A stretch of DNA of 64,000 nt from Escherichia coli phage Wa28. The notes below the pieces were generated by a model. It was not told where the DNA came from. It worked only from the letters and a program-made list of their open reading frames with translations, and did no database searches. Where the stretch lies: the sequence record LC788710.1. One strand, given 5' to 3'. Positions 11,939 through 55,829 of the stretch are shown here, one piece after another. Position 1 is the first letter of the stretch; every line of letters begins with the position of its first letter. The translations under genes and the position numbers were made by a program.

Positions 11939-12200
11939 AAAATCTTTAAGTTTACTAAGGCTATTAGCTCGGTGTGCGTATTACCCTCAGACATTAGCCA
12001 GTAGAGGATAACCGCTCTTCACAAACCCGATACACTATTCAGTTGCCGCTGAATCTAGTGGACTAATCTAGAACTTATTGCAAAGTATCCCCCGCCATTA
12101 AGGGTCTACTTGCAATTGTGCTTTTTGGCAGCCAGTCCTAGGTCGAGCTAATACCTTAGTGAACTTTGATGAGGATTTCTCCTCATCAATTTATATAAAT

Positions 12201-12229
12201 ATTATAACAAGAAATTAAGCATCAAGCAA
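12201..12229 (-). promoter_or_regulatory. early promoter (-35 TTGCTT, -10 TATAAT) driving downstream noncoding leader and tRNAs
   Basis: Conserved module; overlaps stop of upstream ORF. Confidence 0.6.
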
Positions 12230-36707: not shown

Positions 36708-36736
36708 ATTATACCAATATATGCGGGAGAAAGCAA
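36708..36736 (-). promoter_or_regulatory. early promoter for phoH (minus-strand side of divergent region)
   Basis: Conserved module. Confidence 0.6.
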
Positions 36737-49015: not shown

Positions 49016-49158
49016 TTCGTAACCCTTTGCTACCCGTTTACCATGTCGGAATTATAAAGTGGTTATTGACATTTTCGCCGCTTAGGTATATACTATTATC
49101 ATTCAGTTGAGGGATAGAAAGTTATGGCGAGGGTAAGCAAAGTTAGTTAAAATTGTAG

Positions 49159-49188
49159 TTGCTAAATGCTTAAATACTTGCTATAATA
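49159..49188 (+). promoter_or_regulatory. early promoter between the two ligase ORFs
   Basis: TTGCTA ... TATAAT then ATTTATATAAATTGATAAGGAAG. Confidence 0.6.
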
Positions 49189-50773: not shown

Positions 50774-50808
50774 TAAGGGGAGGGGGCTATGCTCCTTCCC
50801 CTTTTTGC
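50774..50808 (+). terminator. rho-independent terminator
   Basis: AAGGGGAGGGGG..CTCCTTCCCCTT hairpin then TTTTTGC. Confidence 0.6.
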
Positions 50809-50839: not shown

Positions 50840-52312
50840 ATGACCTTGTTTAACGTGCAAGCTGTAGTGTTGAAGATGCTTCTCGCTTCTGAACAGAAGC
50901 AAATAGCATTGGAAACATTCTCAAAACTGCATAAAGATCATTTTAATGACGCTTTCTCCTCAATTTACCAAGCCGTCCAGAATTATTATAAGAAATATAA
51001 CGCAATGCCGTCCATTGACGCACTGATGCTTGAGGCCAATAGGAACGCCCGCCTTTCTCAAGCTCTTGTCGTCTTAGCTAACACTCAAATTCCAGAAGTG
51101 AGCATGGAACAGGCGCTTGAAGTCCTAGAAGCCGAATATACACAGGATCTATTCCTGAAACTTCTAGAAACAGACGTGCTTCAAGATTTAACAATGCTGG
51201 ATCAGGGAGAAATTCTCAACCGAGTTGCCTCCCTTCACTTAAAATTAGAAGAGAAAGTAACGAATACTGGAAAGGTATTCAACGCAGACACAATGCGTAT
51301 TTTCCAGAGAGAAGAAGATACCAAACTGAACTTGATCGCTCTTGGTATTTGTAATGAGTTCGACGCTCAAATTGGTTTAGCTCGCACAGAAACGTTACTG
51401 CTTGGTGGTTGGCGTGGTACTGGTAAATCCATTATCTGTTCAAACATACAGGTTCAGCAATATTTGAATGGAGACATTGCTCCATATTTCTCAATTGAGA
51501 TGAAAGAGCACGAAGTGTTTAGACGTAATCTGGCTATGTTAGCTGGAGTATCTGCATTAGCAATGCGTAACAACACTCTTGAAGGTGCTGCTCTGTTGAG
51601 ATTAGCCAGAACTAGGGCTAGGATGTTTAATGGTGGTGAAGAGCTTTTCGATAACTTCGTTAAGCAATACACTATGGCTAAAATGAGTGACTTCTATGAT
51701 ATGGAAAGTAAACTCCTTGAAGGCTATGAGCTTCACACTCCTATGATCATCGTTTACGATCCTGAACTGTCTATTACGACGGTTGACGTAGAATTAAATA
51801 AACTAGTTGCTAAGTATGGTGATAAGGTTACTGTAGCTCTTCTAGACTATATTAACCAAACAAGACTTCCAGATTCAAAGACCATTGATATGTATGACTG
51901 GAAAGAACAGATGGTTGTTAGTTCATCTTTCAAATCTATCTGCCAGAAACATAACGTGGCTGGTGTTGCCCCTTACCAGATTGACCAAGATGGTAGAACG
52001 CGTATGTCTAAAGGGATTCTTGATTCCGCAGATATGGCTGCTAATCTTAATGCTGCAAAAGCTGATAACGGTCAAGGTGCTATTATGTTTGACTTCGTTA
52101 AGACTCGTTCCTCTGATAGTGTGAAGTTTATGCCTAAGATGAACTGGGAAACTCTACGAATGGATAACACTACCAACCTAGCAATGGAAGATATTGCGCA
52201 AATGGAAGCTGAGTTCGTTATTCCAATTGAAAAGGATAAACCAACTCAACCTAAACGTGCTAAGAAAGACAAAGTTGAAAATTCAACAGGTGAACAGGCC
52301 AGCGATATATGA
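50840..52312 (+). CDS. DnaB-like replicative helicase (RecA-fold ATPase); start uncertain
   Basis: Walker A GGWRGTGKS; track start 50789 lies inside the terminator hairpin, so a later in-frame start is likelier. Confidence 0.6.
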   Translation: MTLFNVQAVVLKMLLASEQKQIALETFSKLHKDHFNDAFSSIYQAVQNYYKKYNAMPSIDALMLEANRNARLSQALVVLANTQIPEVSMEQALEVLEAEYTQDLFLKLLETDVLQDLTMLDQGEILNRVASLHLKLEEKVTNTGKVFNADTMRIFQREEDTKLNLIALGICNEFDAQIGLARTETLLLGGWRGTGKSIICSNIQVQQYLNGDIAPYFSIEMKEHEVFRRNLAMLAGVSALAMRNNTLEGAALLRLARTRARMFNGGEELFDNFVKQYTMAKMSDFYDMESKLLEGYELHTPMIIVYDPELSITTVDVELNKLVAKYGDKVTVALLDYINQTRLPDSKTIDMYDWKEQMVVSSSFKSICQKHNVAGVAPYQIDQDGRTRMSKGILDSADMAANLNAAKADNGQGAIMFDFVKTRSSDSVKFMPKMNWETLRMDNTTNLAMEDIAQMEAEFVIPIEKDKPTQPKRAKKDKVENSTGEQASDI

Positions 52313-53199
52313 GTAGAATAACAGAACTACTTGATCTGAAAGGCATTGAATACAAAGACACAGGTGGGGACATCCTCATCTGTTGTCTCAATCCAGATCA
52401 TGATGATAAACACCCAAGTTTGCGTATTGATCCTGAATCAGGTATTATGCATTGCTTGAGCTGTGGCTTCGGTAGAGGAATACCGAGCATTTACCATTAT
52501 TTTAATGAGACTCAGTACAGACAGTCACCAAGATTGTCACAAGTACGTAAAAAGATTTCAGAGATTAGGAATGGATCTACGAATCTTGCAATTCCTGAAT
52601 CTGCTTACCTTTTCGAAGGTGATTTCCGAGGTATCAGTTCTAAGACCTTGAAGAAATATTTTGCTTTCCAACATCAAGCAGATTGGGAAGGCAGAATTGT
52701 ATTCCCAATAACAGATGCTGTTGGACGCAATATCCTATTCTTGGGACGTTCTATAAACAGTTCTGCCCCTCCTAAATACTTAGTAAAACCAAAACAAGTT
52801 TCACCACCGATTTTCCCTGTACGATATAATACACCAGTCCTTGTTCTAGTTGAAGGTATCTTTGATATGTTGAATCTAGAAGATAATGGTGTGGATTATG
52901 CTTCTTGCTGCTTTGGTACGCATCAGTTCACCTCTGATAATATTGCAGATAAGTTCAGTCCTTACATTATTGCTGGAGTAAGAGTAGTTGTTATCTTACT
53001 AGATAACGATGCTTCTGGTAATAAAGCTGCACAAGCATTGGCGAAGCTAATTCGTACAAAAACGCGTTTAACACCTGTAGTTGGTAACTTCCTTCTTCCA
53101 GAAGGTAAAGACCCAGGTGATTTAAATAAAGAAGAGATCGATATGTTGGCTCAACGTATTGAAATTTTAGTTGCCGAATCGCTAAAAGATTTGGTATAA
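52309..53199 (+). CDS. DNA primase (zinc-binding plus TOPRIM-like)
   Basis: 296 aa; N-terminal CLNPDHDDKHPS...HCLSCG zinc motif. Confidence 0.7.
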   Translation: MSRITELLDLKGIEYKDTGGDILICCLNPDHDDKHPSLRIDPESGIMHCLSCGFGRGIPSIYHYFNETQYRQSPRLSQVRKKISEIRNGSTNLAIPESAYLFEGDFRGISSKTLKKYFAFQHQADWEGRIVFPITDAVGRNILFLGRSINSSAPPKYLVKPKQVSPPIFPVRYNTPVLVLVEGIFDMLNLEDNGVDYASCCFGTHQFTSDNIADKFSPYIIAGVRVVVILLDNDASGNKAAQALAKLIRTKTRLTPVVGNFLLPEGKDPGDLNKEEIDMLAQRIEILVAESLKDLV

Positions 53200-53200
53200 T
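53171..53200 (+). promoter_or_regulatory. promoter with extended -10 (TGGTATAAT) overlapping primase stop
   Basis: TTGCCG ... TGGTATAAT; followed by a 9-bp hairpin and SD AAAGGAGA. Confidence 0.5.
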
Positions 53201-53261
53201 ATATTGGTAAGTTAGAGAAGAAACACTGAAGTTATACTTACTTACCAAAAGGAGACTAAAT

Positions 53262-55829
53262 TTGAAAATTGCAGTAGTTGATAAAGCTCTAAATAATACT
53301 CGTTATGATAAACACTTCCAGCTTTACGGTGAGGAAGTTGATGTATTCCATATGTGTAACGAGAAGTTATCTGGTCGTTTGCTGAAAAAGCATATTACAA
53401 TCGGAACTCCAGATAACCCGTTCGATCCGAACGATTACGATTTTGTTGTACTAGTTGGTGCTGAACCTTTCCTGTATTTTGCAGGTAAGAAAGGTATCGG
53501 TGATTATACTGGTAAACGTGTAGAGCATGGCGGTTATGCCAACTGGATTGCAAGTATTAGTCCAGCTCAGCTACACTTTAAGCCTGAAATGAAACCGGTC
53601 TTTGAAGCAACTGTAGAAAGTATTCACGACATTATTAATGGTCGTGAGAAGATTGCAAAAGCCGGTGATTATCGTCCTATTACTGATCCAGATGAAGCTG
53701 AAGAATACATCAAGATGGTGTATAACATGGTTATAGGACCTATCGCATTCGACTCCGAAACCTCAGCTCTGTATGCTCGTGATGGTTATCTTCTAGGTGT
53801 TTCTATGTCTCACCAAGAGTATCAGGGTGTCTATATTGACTCTGACAGCATCACCGAAGTAGCTGTACATTATCTCCAGAAAATTCTGGATAGCAAGAAT
53901 CATCAGATCGTTTTTCATAACTTGAAGTTCGATATGCACTTTTACTCCTATCATCTAGGACTTTCCTTCGAGAAAGCACATAAAGAGCGTAGACTTCATG
54001 ATACCATGTTACAACACTATGTTCTCGATGAACGTCGTGGTACTCACGGCTTGAAATCTCTGGCTATGAAGTATACTGACATGGGCGATTACGACTTTGA
54101 ACTGGATAAGTTCAAGGATGATTATTGCAAAGCACATAAGATCAAGAAAGAAGATTTCAGCTATGATCTGATTCCATTTGATATTATGTGGCCTTATGCT
54201 GCAAAAGATACCGATGCTACTCTGCGTCTGCATAACTTCTTCTTACCGAAAATTGAGAAGAATGAAAAACTTCGCAGTCTATACTATGATGTTCTGATGC
54301 CTGGTTGCGTATTCCTGCAACGTGTTGAAGATCGTGGTGTACCAATTTCTGTTGATCGCTTGAAAGAAGCTCAGTATCAGTTAACTCACAACCTGAACAA
54401 GGCTCGTGAAAAGCTGTATACTTATCCAGAAGTCGTTCAGCTAGAGAAAGATCAGAACGAAGCATTTAACCCGAACTCTGTTAAGCAACTTCGTGTTCTT
54501 CTGTTTGATTATGTTGGTCTGACTCCAACTGGTAAACTGACAGATACAGGTGCAGATTCTACAAACGCAGAAGCTCTGAATGAATTGGCTACTCAGCACC
54601 CGATTGCGAAAACTCTGCTAGAGATTCGTAAGCTGACTAAGCTGATCTCTACTTATGTTGAGAAAATTCTTCTGAGCATCGATGCAGATGGTTGCATTCG
54701 TACCGGTTTCCACGAACACATGACTACTTCTGGTCGTCTGAGTTCTTCTGGTAAGCTAAACCTGCAACAGTTACCACGTGATGAATCTATTATTAAGGGT
54801 TGTGTAGTAGCTCCCCCTGGATATCGTGTAATCGCATGGGACTTAACAACTGCGGAAGTTTATTACGCTGCTGTGCTGTCTGGTGACAGAAACATGCAAC
54901 AAGTATTTATCAACATGAAGAATGAGCCTGATAAATACCCTGACTTCCACTCAAACATCGCACACATGGTATTTAAACTGACCTGTGAACCACGTGATGT
55001 TAAGAAGCTGTTCCCAGCTCTGCGTCAGGCTGCTAAGGCAATTACCTTCGGTATTCTGTATGGTTCTGGCCCAGCTAAAGTAGCTCATTCTGTTAACGAA
55101 GCTCTTCTGGAACAGGCTGCTAAGACAGGCGAACCGTTTGTTGAATGTACCGTTGCAGATGCGAAGGACTATATCGAAACTTACTTCGGTCAGTTCCCTC
55201 AGCTTAAGCGTTGGATTGATAAGTGCCACGATCAGATTAAGAACTTTGGATTCATCTATAGTCACTTTGGTCGTAAGCGTCGTCTGCACAATATCCACTC
55301 CGAAGATCGCGGTGTTCAGGGTGAAGAAATCCGTTCTGGATTTAACGCAATCATTCAGTCTGCATCTTCTGATAGCCTGTTGTTAGGTGCTATTGATGCG
55401 GATGAGGAAATCCTGTCCCTGGGTCTAGGAAAAGAGATGAAGATCGTCATGTTGGTTCACGACTCCGTGGTTGCTATTGTACGTGAAGATCTGATTGATC
55501 AATATAACGAGATTCTGATTCGTAACATCCAGAAGGATCGTGGTATTAGTATCCCTGGCTGCCCAATCGGTATTGATTCTGATTCTGAGAAAGGTGGTTC
55601 TCGTGACTACTCTTGTGGTAAGATGAAGAAACAGCACCCATCAATCGCTTGTATTGATGATGATGAGTATACTCGTTATGTTAAGGGTGTATTACTCGAT
55701 GCAGATTTCGAGTATAAGAAGTTAGCTGCAATGGATAAAGAGCATCCAGACCACAGCAAGTACAAGGATGATAAGTTTATTGCTGTATGTAAAGATCTGG
55801 ATAATGTGAAAAGGATTTTAGGTGCTTGA
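53262..55829 (+). CDS. DNA polymerase, family A (T5-type), TTG start
   Basis: 855 aa; Pol A motif B RQAAKAITFGILYGSG; 3'-5' exonuclease region; matches size of T5 DNA polymerase. Confidence 0.9.
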   Translation: MKIAVVDKALNNTRYDKHFQLYGEEVDVFHMCNEKLSGRLLKKHITIGTPDNPFDPNDYDFVVLVGAEPFLYFAGKKGIGDYTGKRVEHGGYANWIASISPAQLHFKPEMKPVFEATVESIHDIINGREKIAKAGDYRPITDPDEAEEYIKMVYNMVIGPIAFDSETSALYARDGYLLGVSMSHQEYQGVYIDSDSITEVAVHYLQKILDSKNHQIVFHNLKFDMHFYSYHLGLSFEKAHKERRLHDTMLQHYVLDERRGTHGLKSLAMKYTDMGDYDFELDKFKDDYCKAHKIKKEDFSYDLIPFDIMWPYAAKDTDATLRLHNFFLPKIEKNEKLRSLYYDVLMPGCVFLQRVEDRGVPISVDRLKEAQYQLTHNLNKAREKLYTYPEVVQLEKDQNEAFNPNSVKQLRVLLFDYVGLTPTGKLTDTGADSTNAEALNELATQHPIAKTLLEIRKLTKLISTYVEKILLSIDADGCIRTGFHEHMTTSGRLSSSGKLNLQQLPRDESIIKGCVVAPPGYRVIAWDLTTAEVYYAAVLSGDRNMQQVFINMKNEPDKYPDFHSNIAHMVFKLTCEPRDVKKLFPALRQAAKAITFGILYGSGPAKVAHSVNEALLEQAAKTGEPFVECTVADAKDYIETYFGQFPQLKRWIDKCHDQIKNFGFIYSHFGRKRRLHNIHSEDRGVQGEEIRSGFNAIIQSASSDSLLLGAIDADEEILSLGLGKEMKIVMLVHDSVVAIVREDLIDQYNEILIRNIQKDRGISIPGCPIGIDSDSEKGGSRDYSCGKMKKQHPSIACIDDDEYTRYVKGVLLDADFEYKKLAAMDKEHPDHSKYKDDKFIAVCKDLDNVKRILGA

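What the first reader, a model, noticed from the sequence alone, without database searches (positions are those of the whole stretch)
53171..53264. DNA polymerase gene starts with TTG, behind a promoter that overlaps the primase stop and a 9-bp leader hairpin
An extended -10 (TGGTATAAT) overlaps the primase stop codon. The short leader folds into TTGGTAAGT...ACTTACCAA immediately 5' of the SD AAAGGAGA, and the polymerase starts at TTG. This combination suggests translational throttling or coupling of polymerase synthesis.
Basis: seen in the sequence. Interest (0 to 1): 0.4.

Follow-up and report, generated by a model that had tools for sequence, protein, structure and literature searches.

The report
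Structured leader of T5-type polymerase gene
The DNA polymerase gene of this T5-like phage has its own known early promoter, a genuine TTG start codon and a short conserved RNA stem-loop just before the ribosome-binding site; only the stem-loop's conservation is new, and its function is untested.

Summary
The window is a T5-like Epseptimavirus whose closest relative is Salmonella phage BSP22A.

- **Promoter:** it is real but already known. The T5 GenBank record annotates it, and a 2020 primer-extension study detected early "Ppol" transcripts. It is one of 11 copies in the window of the T5 early-promoter signature, against 0.05 expected by chance.
- **TTG start:** it is the annotated and comparatively supported start. 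Relatives carry ATG at the same codon. It is the only TTG among 100 annotated BSP22A genes.
- **Hairpin:** taken alone it is not statistically remarkable, but it is under selection. The 62-nt spacer varies at 8% of sites, against 59% of flanking third-codon positions. The stem keeps pairing through compensatory and G·U changes in Klebsiella, Eos, Proteus and Vibrio relatives. An inner 3-bp helix also covaries. Nothing in Rfam matches.
the predicted transcription start falls inside the 5' arm, so promoter-made RNA carries only 6–7 of the 9 pairs. The hairpin does not hide the ribosome-binding site.
- **Coupling:** translational coupling to primase is not supported.

The likeliest function is a leader element that tunes polymerase output, with weak UUG initiation, a poor standby site and a capped 5' end. 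This is inferred, not shown.

The parts
52309..53199 (+). DNA primase gene. Its last ~45 nt double as the pol promoter.
   Evidence: ORF; annotated as primase in BSP22A and T5. Only 3 of 15 third-codon positions vary in 53152-53196, against 13 of 17 in 53100-53151.
53162..53170 (+). A/T-rich block AAATTTTAG just upstream of the -35 (UP-like element of T5 early promoters)
   Evidence: The same AAAATTnnA block precedes all 11 TGnTATAAT sites in the window. Its role as an UP element is taken from PMC7472727 Fig. S5 legend.
53171..53176 (+). -35 hexamer TTGCCG (TTGCTG in T5)
   Evidence: TTGC is shared by all 11 family members.
53192..53200 (+). Extended -10 TGGTATAAT. The primase stop TAA (53197-53199) lies inside it.
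   Evidence: Invariant in 30 unique T5-like sequences. The orthologous T5 site is annotated as a promoter and was detected as Ppol.
53201..53205 (+). ATATT discriminator typical of T5 early promoters
   Evidence: Sequence. PMC7472727 states that all early T5 promoters carry ATATT here.
53206..53207 (+). Predicted transcription start (G53206 or G53207). Inferred, not mapped here.
   Evidence: Positions 6-7 after the -10. In T5 PN25 the +1 is the 7th nucleotide after TATAAT.
53204..53212 (+). 5' arm of the leader stem (UUGGUAAGU)
53215..53239 (+). Conserved interior of the stem-loop. Contains AG/CU pairs (53216-17 with 53237-38), an inner helix AAC/GUU (53222-24 with 53231-33) and the apical loop ACUGAA (53225-30).
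   Evidence: MFE. The inner helix is 100% paired with a C-G to U-A switch in 5 of 12 sequences. Loop residues are invariant from T5 to Proteus and Providencia phages.
53240..53248 (+). 3' arm of the leader stem (ACUUACCAA)
53249..53255 (+). Shine-Dalgarno AAGGAGA. AGGAG ends 7 nt before the start codon.
   Evidence: GGAG is conserved in all hairpin-bearing lineages, 1-5 nt after the stem.
53262..55829 (+). DNA polymerase gene (family A, 855 aa) with TTG start at 53262-53264
   Evidence: ATG occupies the same codon in Klebsiella, Eos and Vibrio relatives. An in-frame stop lies at 53208-10, with no ATG or GTG in between. Best PDB match is Klenow fragment, E = 2.8e-49.

Best explanation
The region is the dedicated expression module of the T5-type replicative DNA polymerase.

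1. Promoter (shown by family membership and by published T5 data). A strong early-class sigma-70 promoter, 'Ppol', is packed into the last codons of primase. It has an UP-like A/T block, a -35 TTGC, an extended -10 and an ATATT discriminator. It gives pol its own transcript.

2. Stem-loop (structure shown by conservation and covariation; start site inferred). Transcription is predicted to start at G53206 or G53207, inside the 5' arm of a conserved irregular stem-loop of about 45 nt. In Ppol-made mRNA the very 5' end is therefore base-paired in a 6-7 bp version of the stem. Read-through RNA from upstream promoters carries the full 9-bp version as an intercistronic hairpin.

3. Initiation site (shown). 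The stem ends 1 nt before a good Shine-Dalgarno. The gene starts with UUG, the only UUG start among about 100 genes.

4. Mechanism (inferred). The module sets a moderate, robust polymerase output. The paired 5' end and the stem abutting the Shine-Dalgarno leave almost no single-stranded standby site. Together with UUG this keeps initiation frequency low per mRNA. The 5'-terminal helix also protects the mRNA from 5'-end-dependent decay. The hairpin does not work by hiding the ribosome-binding site.
For: Promoter:
- 11 copies of TTGC-N16-17-TGNTATAAT in the window against 0.05 expected. All are oriented with the local genes and share the AAAATT upstream block and an AT-rich discriminator.
- The orthologous T5 site is annotated as a promoter.
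- Early Ppol transcripts were seen by primer extension, and early promoters share an ATATT discriminator (PMC7472727).
- Synonymous variation is suppressed across the promoter inside primase.
- A TATAAT promoter sits before pol across the family, even where the upstream gene differs.

Start codon:
- TTG is annotated in BSP22A, T5 and Providencia PR1.
- ATG occupies the homologous codon in relatives, and residues 2-30 are conserved, including D7, K8 and Y15.
- TTG accounts for 1 of 100 annotated starts.

Hairpin:
- 5 of 62 spacer sites vary (pi 0.015), against 59% of flanking third-codon positions (pi 0.18).
- 86% of cells are paired, against 45% or less when the partner is slid. No shuffle of 500 reaches the observed paired fraction or covariation score, and five pairs show changes on both sides.
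- G·U pairs occur only in the sense orientation.
- The inner helix is 100% paired with a C-G to U-A switch.
- The 5' arm begins 3-5 nt after the -10 in all eight lineages.
- The stem lies 1-5 nt from GGAG in all enterobacterial lineages.
Against: - Neither the transcription start nor the effect on translation or stability has been measured for this sequence.
- Thermodynamic support is modest: z = -0.07 for the 96-nt region. Stem probability is only 0.02-0.14 if transcription starts at G53207, and it is low in the Proteus and Providencia versions.
- The outer pairs that covary (53204-06) lie at or upstream of the predicted start. That argues that at least part of the selection acts on read-through RNA, not on the Ppol transcript.
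- The strong conservation of the loop sequence is more than a simple stabiliser or standby-site model needs. It hints at a sequence-specific partner.
- Closely related clades lack this hairpin (Pectobacterium DU_PP_V, Pogseptimavirus and many environmental relatives), so it is not essential for pol expression.
Confidence: 0.5

Rival explanations
1. The stem-loop is a sequence-specific translational operator. A phage protein, possibly the polymerase itself as with T4 gp43, binds the conserved loop and helix next to the Shine-Dalgarno and competes with the ribosome, giving feedback control of pol synthesis.
For: - The hairpin lies directly 5' of the Shine-Dalgarno in all enterobacterial lineages.
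- Loop residues (A..AG.AG.AA.A..GA..TT.TACT) are invariant from T5 to Proteus and Providencia phages while the outer stem changes sequence.
- The whole spacer is as constrained as non-synonymous sites.
- There is precedent: the T4/RB69 gp43 operator is a hairpin plus RBS-overlapping sequence (PMC3014915).
Against: - There are no binding data.
- T5 pol is family A and unrelated to gp43.
- The first ~20 transcribed nt resemble other T5 early promoters, so part of the 'loop' conservation may be promoter-level.
- No second copy of the motif exists in the 64-kb window, so it is not a RegA-like regulon.
- Relatives with about 78% identical pol lack the element.
Confidence: 0.15
2. The element acts on read-through (helicase-primase-pol) transcripts as an intercistronic structure. 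It could be a processing or 3'-protective hairpin resembling T7 RNase III sites. It could also be a decayed descendant of the promoter-embedded intrinsic terminator seen at the same place in Vibrio relatives.
For: - The full 9-bp stem exists only in read-through RNA, with probability about 0.95-1.0.
- The covarying outer pairs lie at or before the predicted start site.
- In Vibrio Demerecviridae the same position, 4-5 nt after the -10, carries a 13-bp hairpin plus T-run that scores as a terminator.
- Overall the element is an irregular helix of about 15 bp with internal loops.
Against: - No U-run follows the stem in the window or in any enterobacterial lineage, and one search lists no terminator here.
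- The helix is shorter than typical RNase III substrates.
- This model does not explain the fixed 3-5 nt offset from the -10 or the fixed 1-5 nt offset from the Shine-Dalgarno.
Confidence: 0.15
3. The constraint is mainly at the DNA level. The sequence would be the downstream part of the promoter (initial transcribed region) and/or an operator for a phage DNA-binding protein that shuts Ppol off after about 30 min. On this view the inverted repeat is a pair of protein half-sites, not an RNA stem.
For: - Positions +1 to about +20 resemble other early promoters, for example 36708-36736(-): ATATTTGTAAGTTGATAAAC.
- Ppol transcripts disappear after 30 min.
- Half-site co-evolution can mimic covariation.
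Against: - G·U-type changes keep RNA pairing but break DNA symmetry: U·G at columns 19-49 in 5 of 12 sequences, and G·U at columns 12-56 in the Klebsiella phage.
- They work only on the sense strand.
- The inner 3-bp helix also covaries.
- A half-site spacing of 36 bp centre to centre is atypical.
Confidence: 0.07
4. The hairpin is a chance inverted repeat with no function of its own.
For: - About 10 such 9-bp repeats are expected per 64 kb.
- Fold z-score is -0.07.
Against: - Strong purifying selection on the spacer.
- Compensatory changes in several lineages.
- The same geometry in eight lineages.
Confidence: 0.03

Closest known systems
Bacteriophage T5 early promoters (PN25, PN26, PK28a/b family; 'Ppol' of Klimuk et al. 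2020, PMC7472727)
   Same: - The architecture matches: A/T-rich upstream block, -35 TTGC(T), 17-18 nt spacer, TGnTATAAT and an ATATT discriminator.
- The orthologous T5 site differs at one position in the promoter (TTGCTG against TTGCCG).
- It is annotated in AY543070 and was detected by primer extension.
   Different: Most family members in the window have a short leader of about 28 nt, with the Shine-Dalgarno inside the conserved downstream region. Ppol has a 55-nt leader with an added 3' arm and a second, real Shine-Dalgarno.
T4/RB69 gene 43 (DNA polymerase) autogenous translational operator
   Same: A hairpin sits just upstream of the Shine-Dalgarno of a phage replicative polymerase gene, with a conserved loop sequence (for T4; here).
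   Different: - The polymerase family is unrelated (A against B).
- The stem-loop is much larger (45 nt against 16-18 nt).
- There is no UAAC loop.
- No binding or repression data exist for T5.
T4 gene e / soc / 49 / I-TevI leaders (promoter lying in the 5' strand of an inhibitory hairpin)
   Same: The promoter's start site lies within or after the 5' arm. Promoter-made and read-through transcripts therefore differ in whether the complete helix can form.
   Different: In T4 the helix sequesters the Shine-Dalgarno or AUG. Here both stay outside the helix and remain accessible in both transcript types.
5'-terminal stabilising stem-loops (E. coli ompA 5' UTR type; from my own knowledge of Emory, Bouvet and Belasco 1992)
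   Same: The helix begins at or within a nucleotide of the predicted 5' end, and the offset from the -10 is conserved at 3-5 nt.
   Different: ompA-type protection does not need a conserved loop sequence. Stability here is marginal when the stem is truncated, -4 to -7 kcal/mol. The effect on half-life is unknown.
Promoter-embedded intrinsic terminator or attenuator before pol in Vibrio Demerecviridae (Thalassavirus and relatives)
   Same: The position and offset from an extended -10 promoter are the same. The first transcribed bases are related: GGTAAnTnnGAGAAG.
   Different: The Vibrio version has a 13-bp stem, a tetraloop and a U-run, and lies about 45 nt from the Shine-Dalgarno. The window's version has no U-run and abuts the Shine-Dalgarno.

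Membership tests
T5 early-class sigma-70 promoter | -35 TTGC(T)N, 16-18 nt spacer, extended -10 TGnTATAAT | tested here: met
   TTGCCG-18-TGGTATAAT at 53171-53200. It is one of 11 pattern matches against 0.05 expected.
T5 early-class sigma-70 promoter | A/T-rich UP-like block upstream of -35 and ATATT discriminator after -10 | tested here: met
   AAATTTTAG at 53162-70 and ATATT at 53201-05. The criterion comes from PMC7472727.
T5 early-class sigma-70 promoter | Transcripts start there in infected cells, with early kinetics | not testable with these tools
   Reported for the T5 orthologue (Ppol, primer extension). The exact +1 is in a figure that is not held as text. Nothing has been measured for this phage.
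Non-AUG (UUG) initiation codon | No upstream in-frame AUG or GUG after the preceding stop; Shine-Dalgarno 5-9 nt upstream; conserved N-terminus begins at the next codon; relatives have AUG at the same codon | tested here: met
   In-frame stop at 53208-10. AGGAG lies 7 nt upstream. The KIAVVDK motif is conserved. ATG is at the same codon in Klebsiella, Eos and Vibrio phages.
Non-AUG (UUG) initiation codon | Protein N-terminus verified | not testable with these tools
   No solved T5 pol structure exists. The 2004 JBC paper on cloned T5 pol is not held.
Conserved RNA secondary structure | Pairing kept through compensatory and wobble changes, better than slid or shuffled controls | tested here: met
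   86% of cells paired against 45% or less when slid. No shuffle of 500 reaches the observed paired fraction or covariation score, and five pairs show both-side changes. The inner helix is 100% paired with C-G to U-A. Caveat: only 12 sequences, and the Proteus stem is offset by one column.
Conserved RNA secondary structure | Thermodynamic stability beyond that expected from composition | tested here: not met
   z = -0.07. Stem probability ranges from 0.02 to 1.0 depending on the 5' end and lineage.
Intrinsic (Rho-independent) terminator | G+C-rich stem followed by a U-run | tested here: not met
   The stem is A/U-rich and is followed by AAAAGGAG. It is not listed. The feature is met at the orthologous place in Vibrio phages.
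T4 gp43-type autogenous translational operator | Hairpin adjacent to or overlapping the RBS of the polymerase gene, with a conserved loop | tested here: met
   The stem ends 1 nt before the Shine-Dalgarno, and loop residues are invariant across genera.
T4 gp43-type autogenous translational operator | Specific binding by the polymerase and translational repression | not testable with these tools
   This needs binding and reporter assays.
T4 gp43-type autogenous translational operator | Homology to the T4/RB69 operator (short stem, UAAC loop) and a family B polymerase | tested here: not met
   The element is a 45-nt irregular stem-loop with apical loop ACUGAA. The polymerase is family A (Klenow-like).
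T4 gene e-type transcript-specific TIR sequestration | Promoter start lies within or after the 5' strand of the helix | tested here: inconclusive
   Predicted from the -10 spacing: the arm starts 4 nt after the -10, and +1 is expected at nt 6-7. The start has not been mapped.
T4 gene e-type transcript-specific TIR sequestration | [quoted passage not shown] | tested here: not met
   Unpaired probabilities in read-through RNA are 0.76 for the Shine-Dalgarno and 0.81 for the start codon, no lower than in promoter-made RNA.
5'-terminal mRNA-stabilising stem-loop | Helix within 0-4 nt of the 5' end of the primary transcript | tested here: inconclusive
   True if +1 is G53206 or G53207. This depends on an unmapped start. 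The effect on half-life cannot be tested here.
Any Rfam family | Covariance-model match | tested here: not met
   Only three chance-level hits (E > 4), none over 53195-53264.

The most novel reading that the evidence does not exclude
The ~45-nt leader stem-loop, with its invariant loop residues, covarying inner helix and fixed position against the Shine-Dalgarno, could be a specific RNA operator. It would be bound by a T5 early protein, possibly the family-A polymerase itself. That would give autogenous translational control of a replicative polymerase in a lineage unrelated to T4 gp43, as a case of convergent evolution. In Vibrio relatives the same site would have been recast as a promoter-proximal attenuator.
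Probability: 0.12. Interest if true: 0.6.

Novelty: new member of a known kind. Interest (0 to 1): 0.3.

Why it matters
- **What is already known.** T5 DNA polymerase is a widely used processive, strand-displacing enzyme, and T5 promoters are standard expression tools. The pol promoter and its TTG start are already in the record, so that part adds nothing new.
- **What is new.** The 62-nt pol leader is under purifying selection as strong as protein-coding constraint. It folds into a covarying stem-loop that spans the transcription start and abuts the ribosome-binding site. This motif is not in Rfam.
- **Possible significance.** If the element proves to control pol synthesis or mRNA fate, it would be one of very few post-transcriptional controls described for T5-like phages. 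It would also give a natural comparison with the T4 gp43 operator.
- **Practical points.**
  - Automated annotation can miss the TTG start and truncate pol by 30 residues, as happened in phage KookSpook.
  - Anyone re-using this region for expression should know that the start site lies inside the stem.

Tried and rejected
1. **Leader peptide (uORF) in the loop.** A [C/U]UG codon follows the purine-rich GAGAAG in T5, Klebsiella, Providencia and Proteus phages. The codon is ACG in Erwinia KEY and Pantoea AAS21, and the frame and stop are not conserved. Rejected.
2. **Translational coupling to primase.** The gap is 62 nt, and pol has its own promoter and Shine-Dalgarno. In L049 a 109-aa ORF is inserted between the two genes while the leader is unchanged. 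Rejected.
3. **T4 gene e-type sequestration of the RBS in read-through RNA.** The Shine-Dalgarno and start codon stay accessible. Rejected.
4. **Intrinsic terminator.** There is no U-run. Rejected for this phage; it holds only for Vibrio relatives.
5. **Known RNA family.** No Rfam hit.
6. **Repeated regulatory motif (regulon).** Covariance model R1 hits only once in the window with a meaningful score.
7. **Long-range pairing of the primase 3' end with the pol start in read-through RNA.** It appears in one MFE, but the start codon remains 0.81 unpaired. Not pursued.
8. **Literature proof of the protein N-terminus.** The JBC 2004 paper is not held. Text searches found nothing explicit. There is no PDB entry for T5 pol.
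9. **Published genome-wide start-site map for T5.** None found.
10. **Structure-aware realignment of the Proteus stem.** Infernal kept the sequence-driven register. The Proteus 7-bp stem GUUGGAU/AUCCAAC is therefore counted as 'broken', which makes those statistics conservative.

Full report
**Source and gene context.** Region 52309-54300 of the window is 100% identical to Salmonella phage BSP22A (KY787212; Demerecviridae, Markadamsvirinae, Epseptimavirus). It is 88-98% identical to about 440 other T5-like phages. The left part of the window is only 97.8% identical to BSP22A over 92% of its length, so the window comes from a close relative and not from that record. Local gene order is ligase B, D5, helicase, primase (52309-53199), DNA polymerase (53262-55829), a small ORF, then the D10 helicase. 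All are on the + strand, as in T5.

**Observation.**
- The -35 TTGCCG is at 53171-76, followed by an 18-nt spacer.
- The extended -10 TGGTATAAT is at 53192-53200, with the primase stop TAA (53197-99) inside the hexamer.
- The arms TTGGTAAGT (53204-12) and ACTTACCAA (53240-48) are perfectly complementary across a 27-nt interval.
- The Shine-Dalgarno AAGGAGA is at 53249-55.
- TTG is at 53262-64, opening an 855-aa ORF.

**Promoter.** A generic sigma-70 consensus match means little in this A/T-rich DNA: 43 sites against 30.8 expected over 12 kb. The site does, however, carry the specific signature of T5 early promoters.
- The pattern TTGC-N16-17-TGNTATAAT occurs 11 times in the window against 0.05 expected.
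- All copies point in the direction of the local genes.
- All are preceded by an AAAATT block and followed by an AT-rich discriminator.

The orthologous site in phage T5 is annotated as a promoter (AY543070 70987-71061). It differs at one base in the -35. Klimuk et al. 2020 (PMC7472727) detected early 'Ppol' transcripts by primer extension in infected cells. They also state that all early T5 promoters carry ATATT in the discriminator. The window has ATATT at 53201-05.

Within primase, synonymous variation collapses over the promoter. Only 3 of 15 third positions vary in 53152-53196, against 13 of 17 just upstream. A TATAAT promoter directly before pol recurs across the family. That includes Vibrio phages and distant environmental relatives, and cases where the upstream gene is an HNH endonuclease or an inserted ORF. 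The promoter is therefore real, but it is already known.

**Start codon.**
- The reading frame opens after TAA at 53208-10, and TTG at 53262 is the first canonical start.
- AGGAG lies 7 nt upstream.
- Residues 2-30 are conserved in homologues down to 41% identity, including D7, K8 and Y15.
- Klebsiella, Eos, Erwinia, Proteus and Vibrio relatives have ATG at or next to the same codon.
- All 30 unique T5-like sequences keep TTG.
- Providencia phage PR1 also uses TTG, three codons upstream, and it is annotated so.
- GenBank annotates TTG in BSP22A and T5.
- Among 100 annotated BSP22A CDS across this region, pol is the only TTG start (90 ATG, 9 GTG).
- One automated annotation (phage KookSpook) starts pol at ATG codon 31 instead, which illustrates the practical risk.

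I could not obtain direct N-terminal protein evidence.

**Hairpin: the single-sequence view.** A perfect 9-bp inverted repeat with a loop of 30 nt or less appears about 10 times per 64 kb in dinucleotide shuffles, or roughly 0.01 per 62-nt spacer. The 96-nt region folds no better than shuffles (z = -0.07). The single sequence is therefore weak evidence.

**Hairpin: comparative evidence.** In 30 unique T5-like sequences the 62-nt spacer has 5 variable sites (8%, pi 0.015). Flanking third-codon positions are 59% variable (pi about 0.18). The spacer is thus as constrained as first and second codon positions. Two of the five variants lie in stem positions:
- A53240G keeps pairing as U·G.
- T53204G breaks only the terminal pair.

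More distant lineages keep a stem at the same place with different sequence:

| Lineage | 5' arm / 3' arm | Note |
|---|---|---|
| Klebsiella phages | UGGGUAAGU / GCUUACCUA | |
| Eos | UCUGUAAGU / GCUUACAGA | two compensatory pairs |
| Erwinia and Pantoea | UUCGUAAGU / GCUUACUAA | one mismatch |
| Providencia | 6 + 2 bp | |
| Proteus | GUUGGAU / AUCCAAC | |
| Vibrio Thalassavirus | 13-bp stem | followed by a T-run |
| L205 | GGGUGACU / AGUCACCC | followed by a T-run |

On a 12-sequence alignment, 86% of cells pair, against 45% or less when the 3' partner is slid. No shuffle of 500 reaches the observed paired fraction or covariation score, and five of nine pairs show changes on both sides. This count is conservative, because the Proteus stem is offset by one column and scores as broken.

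G·U pairs are frequent and work only on the sense strand. That argues for RNA and against DNA half-sites.

The '27-nt loop' is not an open loop.
- Residues A..AG.AG.AA.A..GA..TT.TACT are invariant across genera.
- An inner helix (53222-24 with 53231-33) is 100% paired, switching from C-G to U-A in 5 of 12 sequences.

No Rfam family matches. A covariance model of the element finds only this one copy in the window. Some close clades lack the element, including Pectobacterium DU_PP_V and Pogseptimavirus. Many environmental relatives have leaders of about 25 nt and also lack it.

**Geometry and its consequences.** In all eight lineages the 5' arm starts 3-5 nt after the -10 hexamer. In T5 PN25 the +1 is the 7th nucleotide after TATAAT. 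The expected start here is G53206 or G53207, which is inside the arm.
- Ppol-made RNA therefore has only 6-7 of the 9 pairs.
- Predicted stem probability is about 0.85-0.93 from G53206, 0.02-0.14 from G53207, and about 0.95-1.0 in read-through RNA.
- The Shine-Dalgarno and start codon remain largely unpaired in all contexts, at 0.45-0.81. The hairpin does not act by occlusion.
- Several covarying pairs lie at or upstream of the predicted start. Either the start is unusually close to the -10, or selection also acts on read-through transcripts.

**Interpretation.** Three things are shown:
- an early promoter of a known family;
- a genuine and locally unique UUG start;
- a selectively maintained RNA stem-loop that spans the start site and abuts the Shine-Dalgarno.

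The function is inferred. The module likely sets polymerase output after transcription. A paired 5' end and a helix 1 nt from the Shine-Dalgarno leave little single-stranded standby site. UUG lowers initiation further. A 5'-terminal helix would also shield the mRNA from 5'-end-dependent decay. I give this 0.5.

The rivals are as follows:

| Rival explanation | Confidence | Main point |
|---|---|---|
| Sequence-specific translational operator, as with T4 gp43 | 0.15 | Favoured by the conserved loop |
| Intercistronic processing or stability element, or decayed terminator, acting on read-through RNA | 0.15 | Favoured by the outer-pair covariation and the Vibrio terminator-like homologue |
| DNA-level promoter or operator constraint | 0.07 | |
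| Chance | 0.03 | |

'Coupling' to primase does not.

**Novelty and score.** The promoter and the TTG start are already known. The conserved, covarying leader structure appears to be undescribed: there is no Rfam hit, and I found no mention in the literature searched. It is a new member of a familiar class, the cis-acting 5' leader hairpins. Interest is 0.3.

Noticed in passing
L037:1394-1455; L205:1378-1442; L316 (Vibrio phage Bennett) 317-365: In Vibrio Demerecviridae the extended -10 promoter before pol is followed 4-5 nt later by a 13-bp hairpin plus T-run that scores as an intrinsic terminator. The predicted start site lies inside the terminator's 5' arm, yet the stem is still predicted to form (0.86-1.0) in promoter-made RNA. 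This looks like a promoter-proximal attenuator or insulator.
   Followed up: partly
L049:1040-1500 (SKEH01000150.1) and L048: A 109-aa ORF is inserted between primase and pol, and homology breaks exactly at the -10 hexamers. The old promoter at the primase end now fronts the insert, and a second promoter (TTTGCT...TGATATAAT) with the unchanged leader fronts pol. This suggests cassette exchange at early-promoter sequences.
   Followed up: partly
L319 (Escherichia phage KookSpook PP925842) 338-495: Pol is annotated from ATG at codon 31, although the TTG start, Shine-Dalgarno and leader are intact. This is probably an automated mis-call that truncates the protein by 30 residues.
   Followed up: partly
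L048:1495-1503 (CYGL01000004.1): A one-base insertion turns the TTG start into TTAG. It is most likely an assembly error in a metagenomic contig.
   Followed up: no
window 36708-36736 (- strand) and downstream: Another early promoter (TGGTATAAT) has an initial transcribed region ATATTTGTAAGTTGATAAAC. This is very close to Ppol's ATATTGGTAAGTTAGAGAAG, so the 5' arm of the pol hairpin is built from generic early-promoter downstream sequence.
   Followed up: partly
window 12166-12189 (- strand): A perfect 9-bp hairpin, TTGATGAGG/CCTCATCAA, lies directly after another early promoter (12201-12229, - strand). Leader hairpins next to early promoters may be a recurring feature of this phage.
   Followed up: no
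window 53152-53199: The last ~45 nt of primase show suppressed synonymous variation (3 of 15 third positions, against 13 of 17 just upstream). This is a clear footprint of the overlapping promoter on a coding sequence.
   Followed up: yes
window 50775-50803: A strong terminator-like hairpin (13 bp, 8 G-C pairs, then a T-run) lies between D5 and the helicase gene. No good promoter match lies before helicase-primase, so read-through into primase and pol may be limited.
   Followed up: no
window 1-32000: The window is not collinear with BSP22A here: indels are present, and identity is 97.8% over 92% of the first 24 kb. The source is a related, apparently undeposited Epseptimavirus. This part also holds a large tRNA gene cluster in BSP22A.
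   Followed up: partly
L028:1440-1500; L036:1435-1500: The Pectobacterium DU_PP_V clade has about 78% pol identity but lacks the T5-type stem-loop. It shares a different small leader hairpin, AGCCCUGAUAGGC.
   Followed up: no
window 49066-49187: Two tandem early promoters (equivalents of T5 PK28b and PK28a) sit between the two halves of the split NAD-dependent ligase (ligA and ligB).
   Followed up: no
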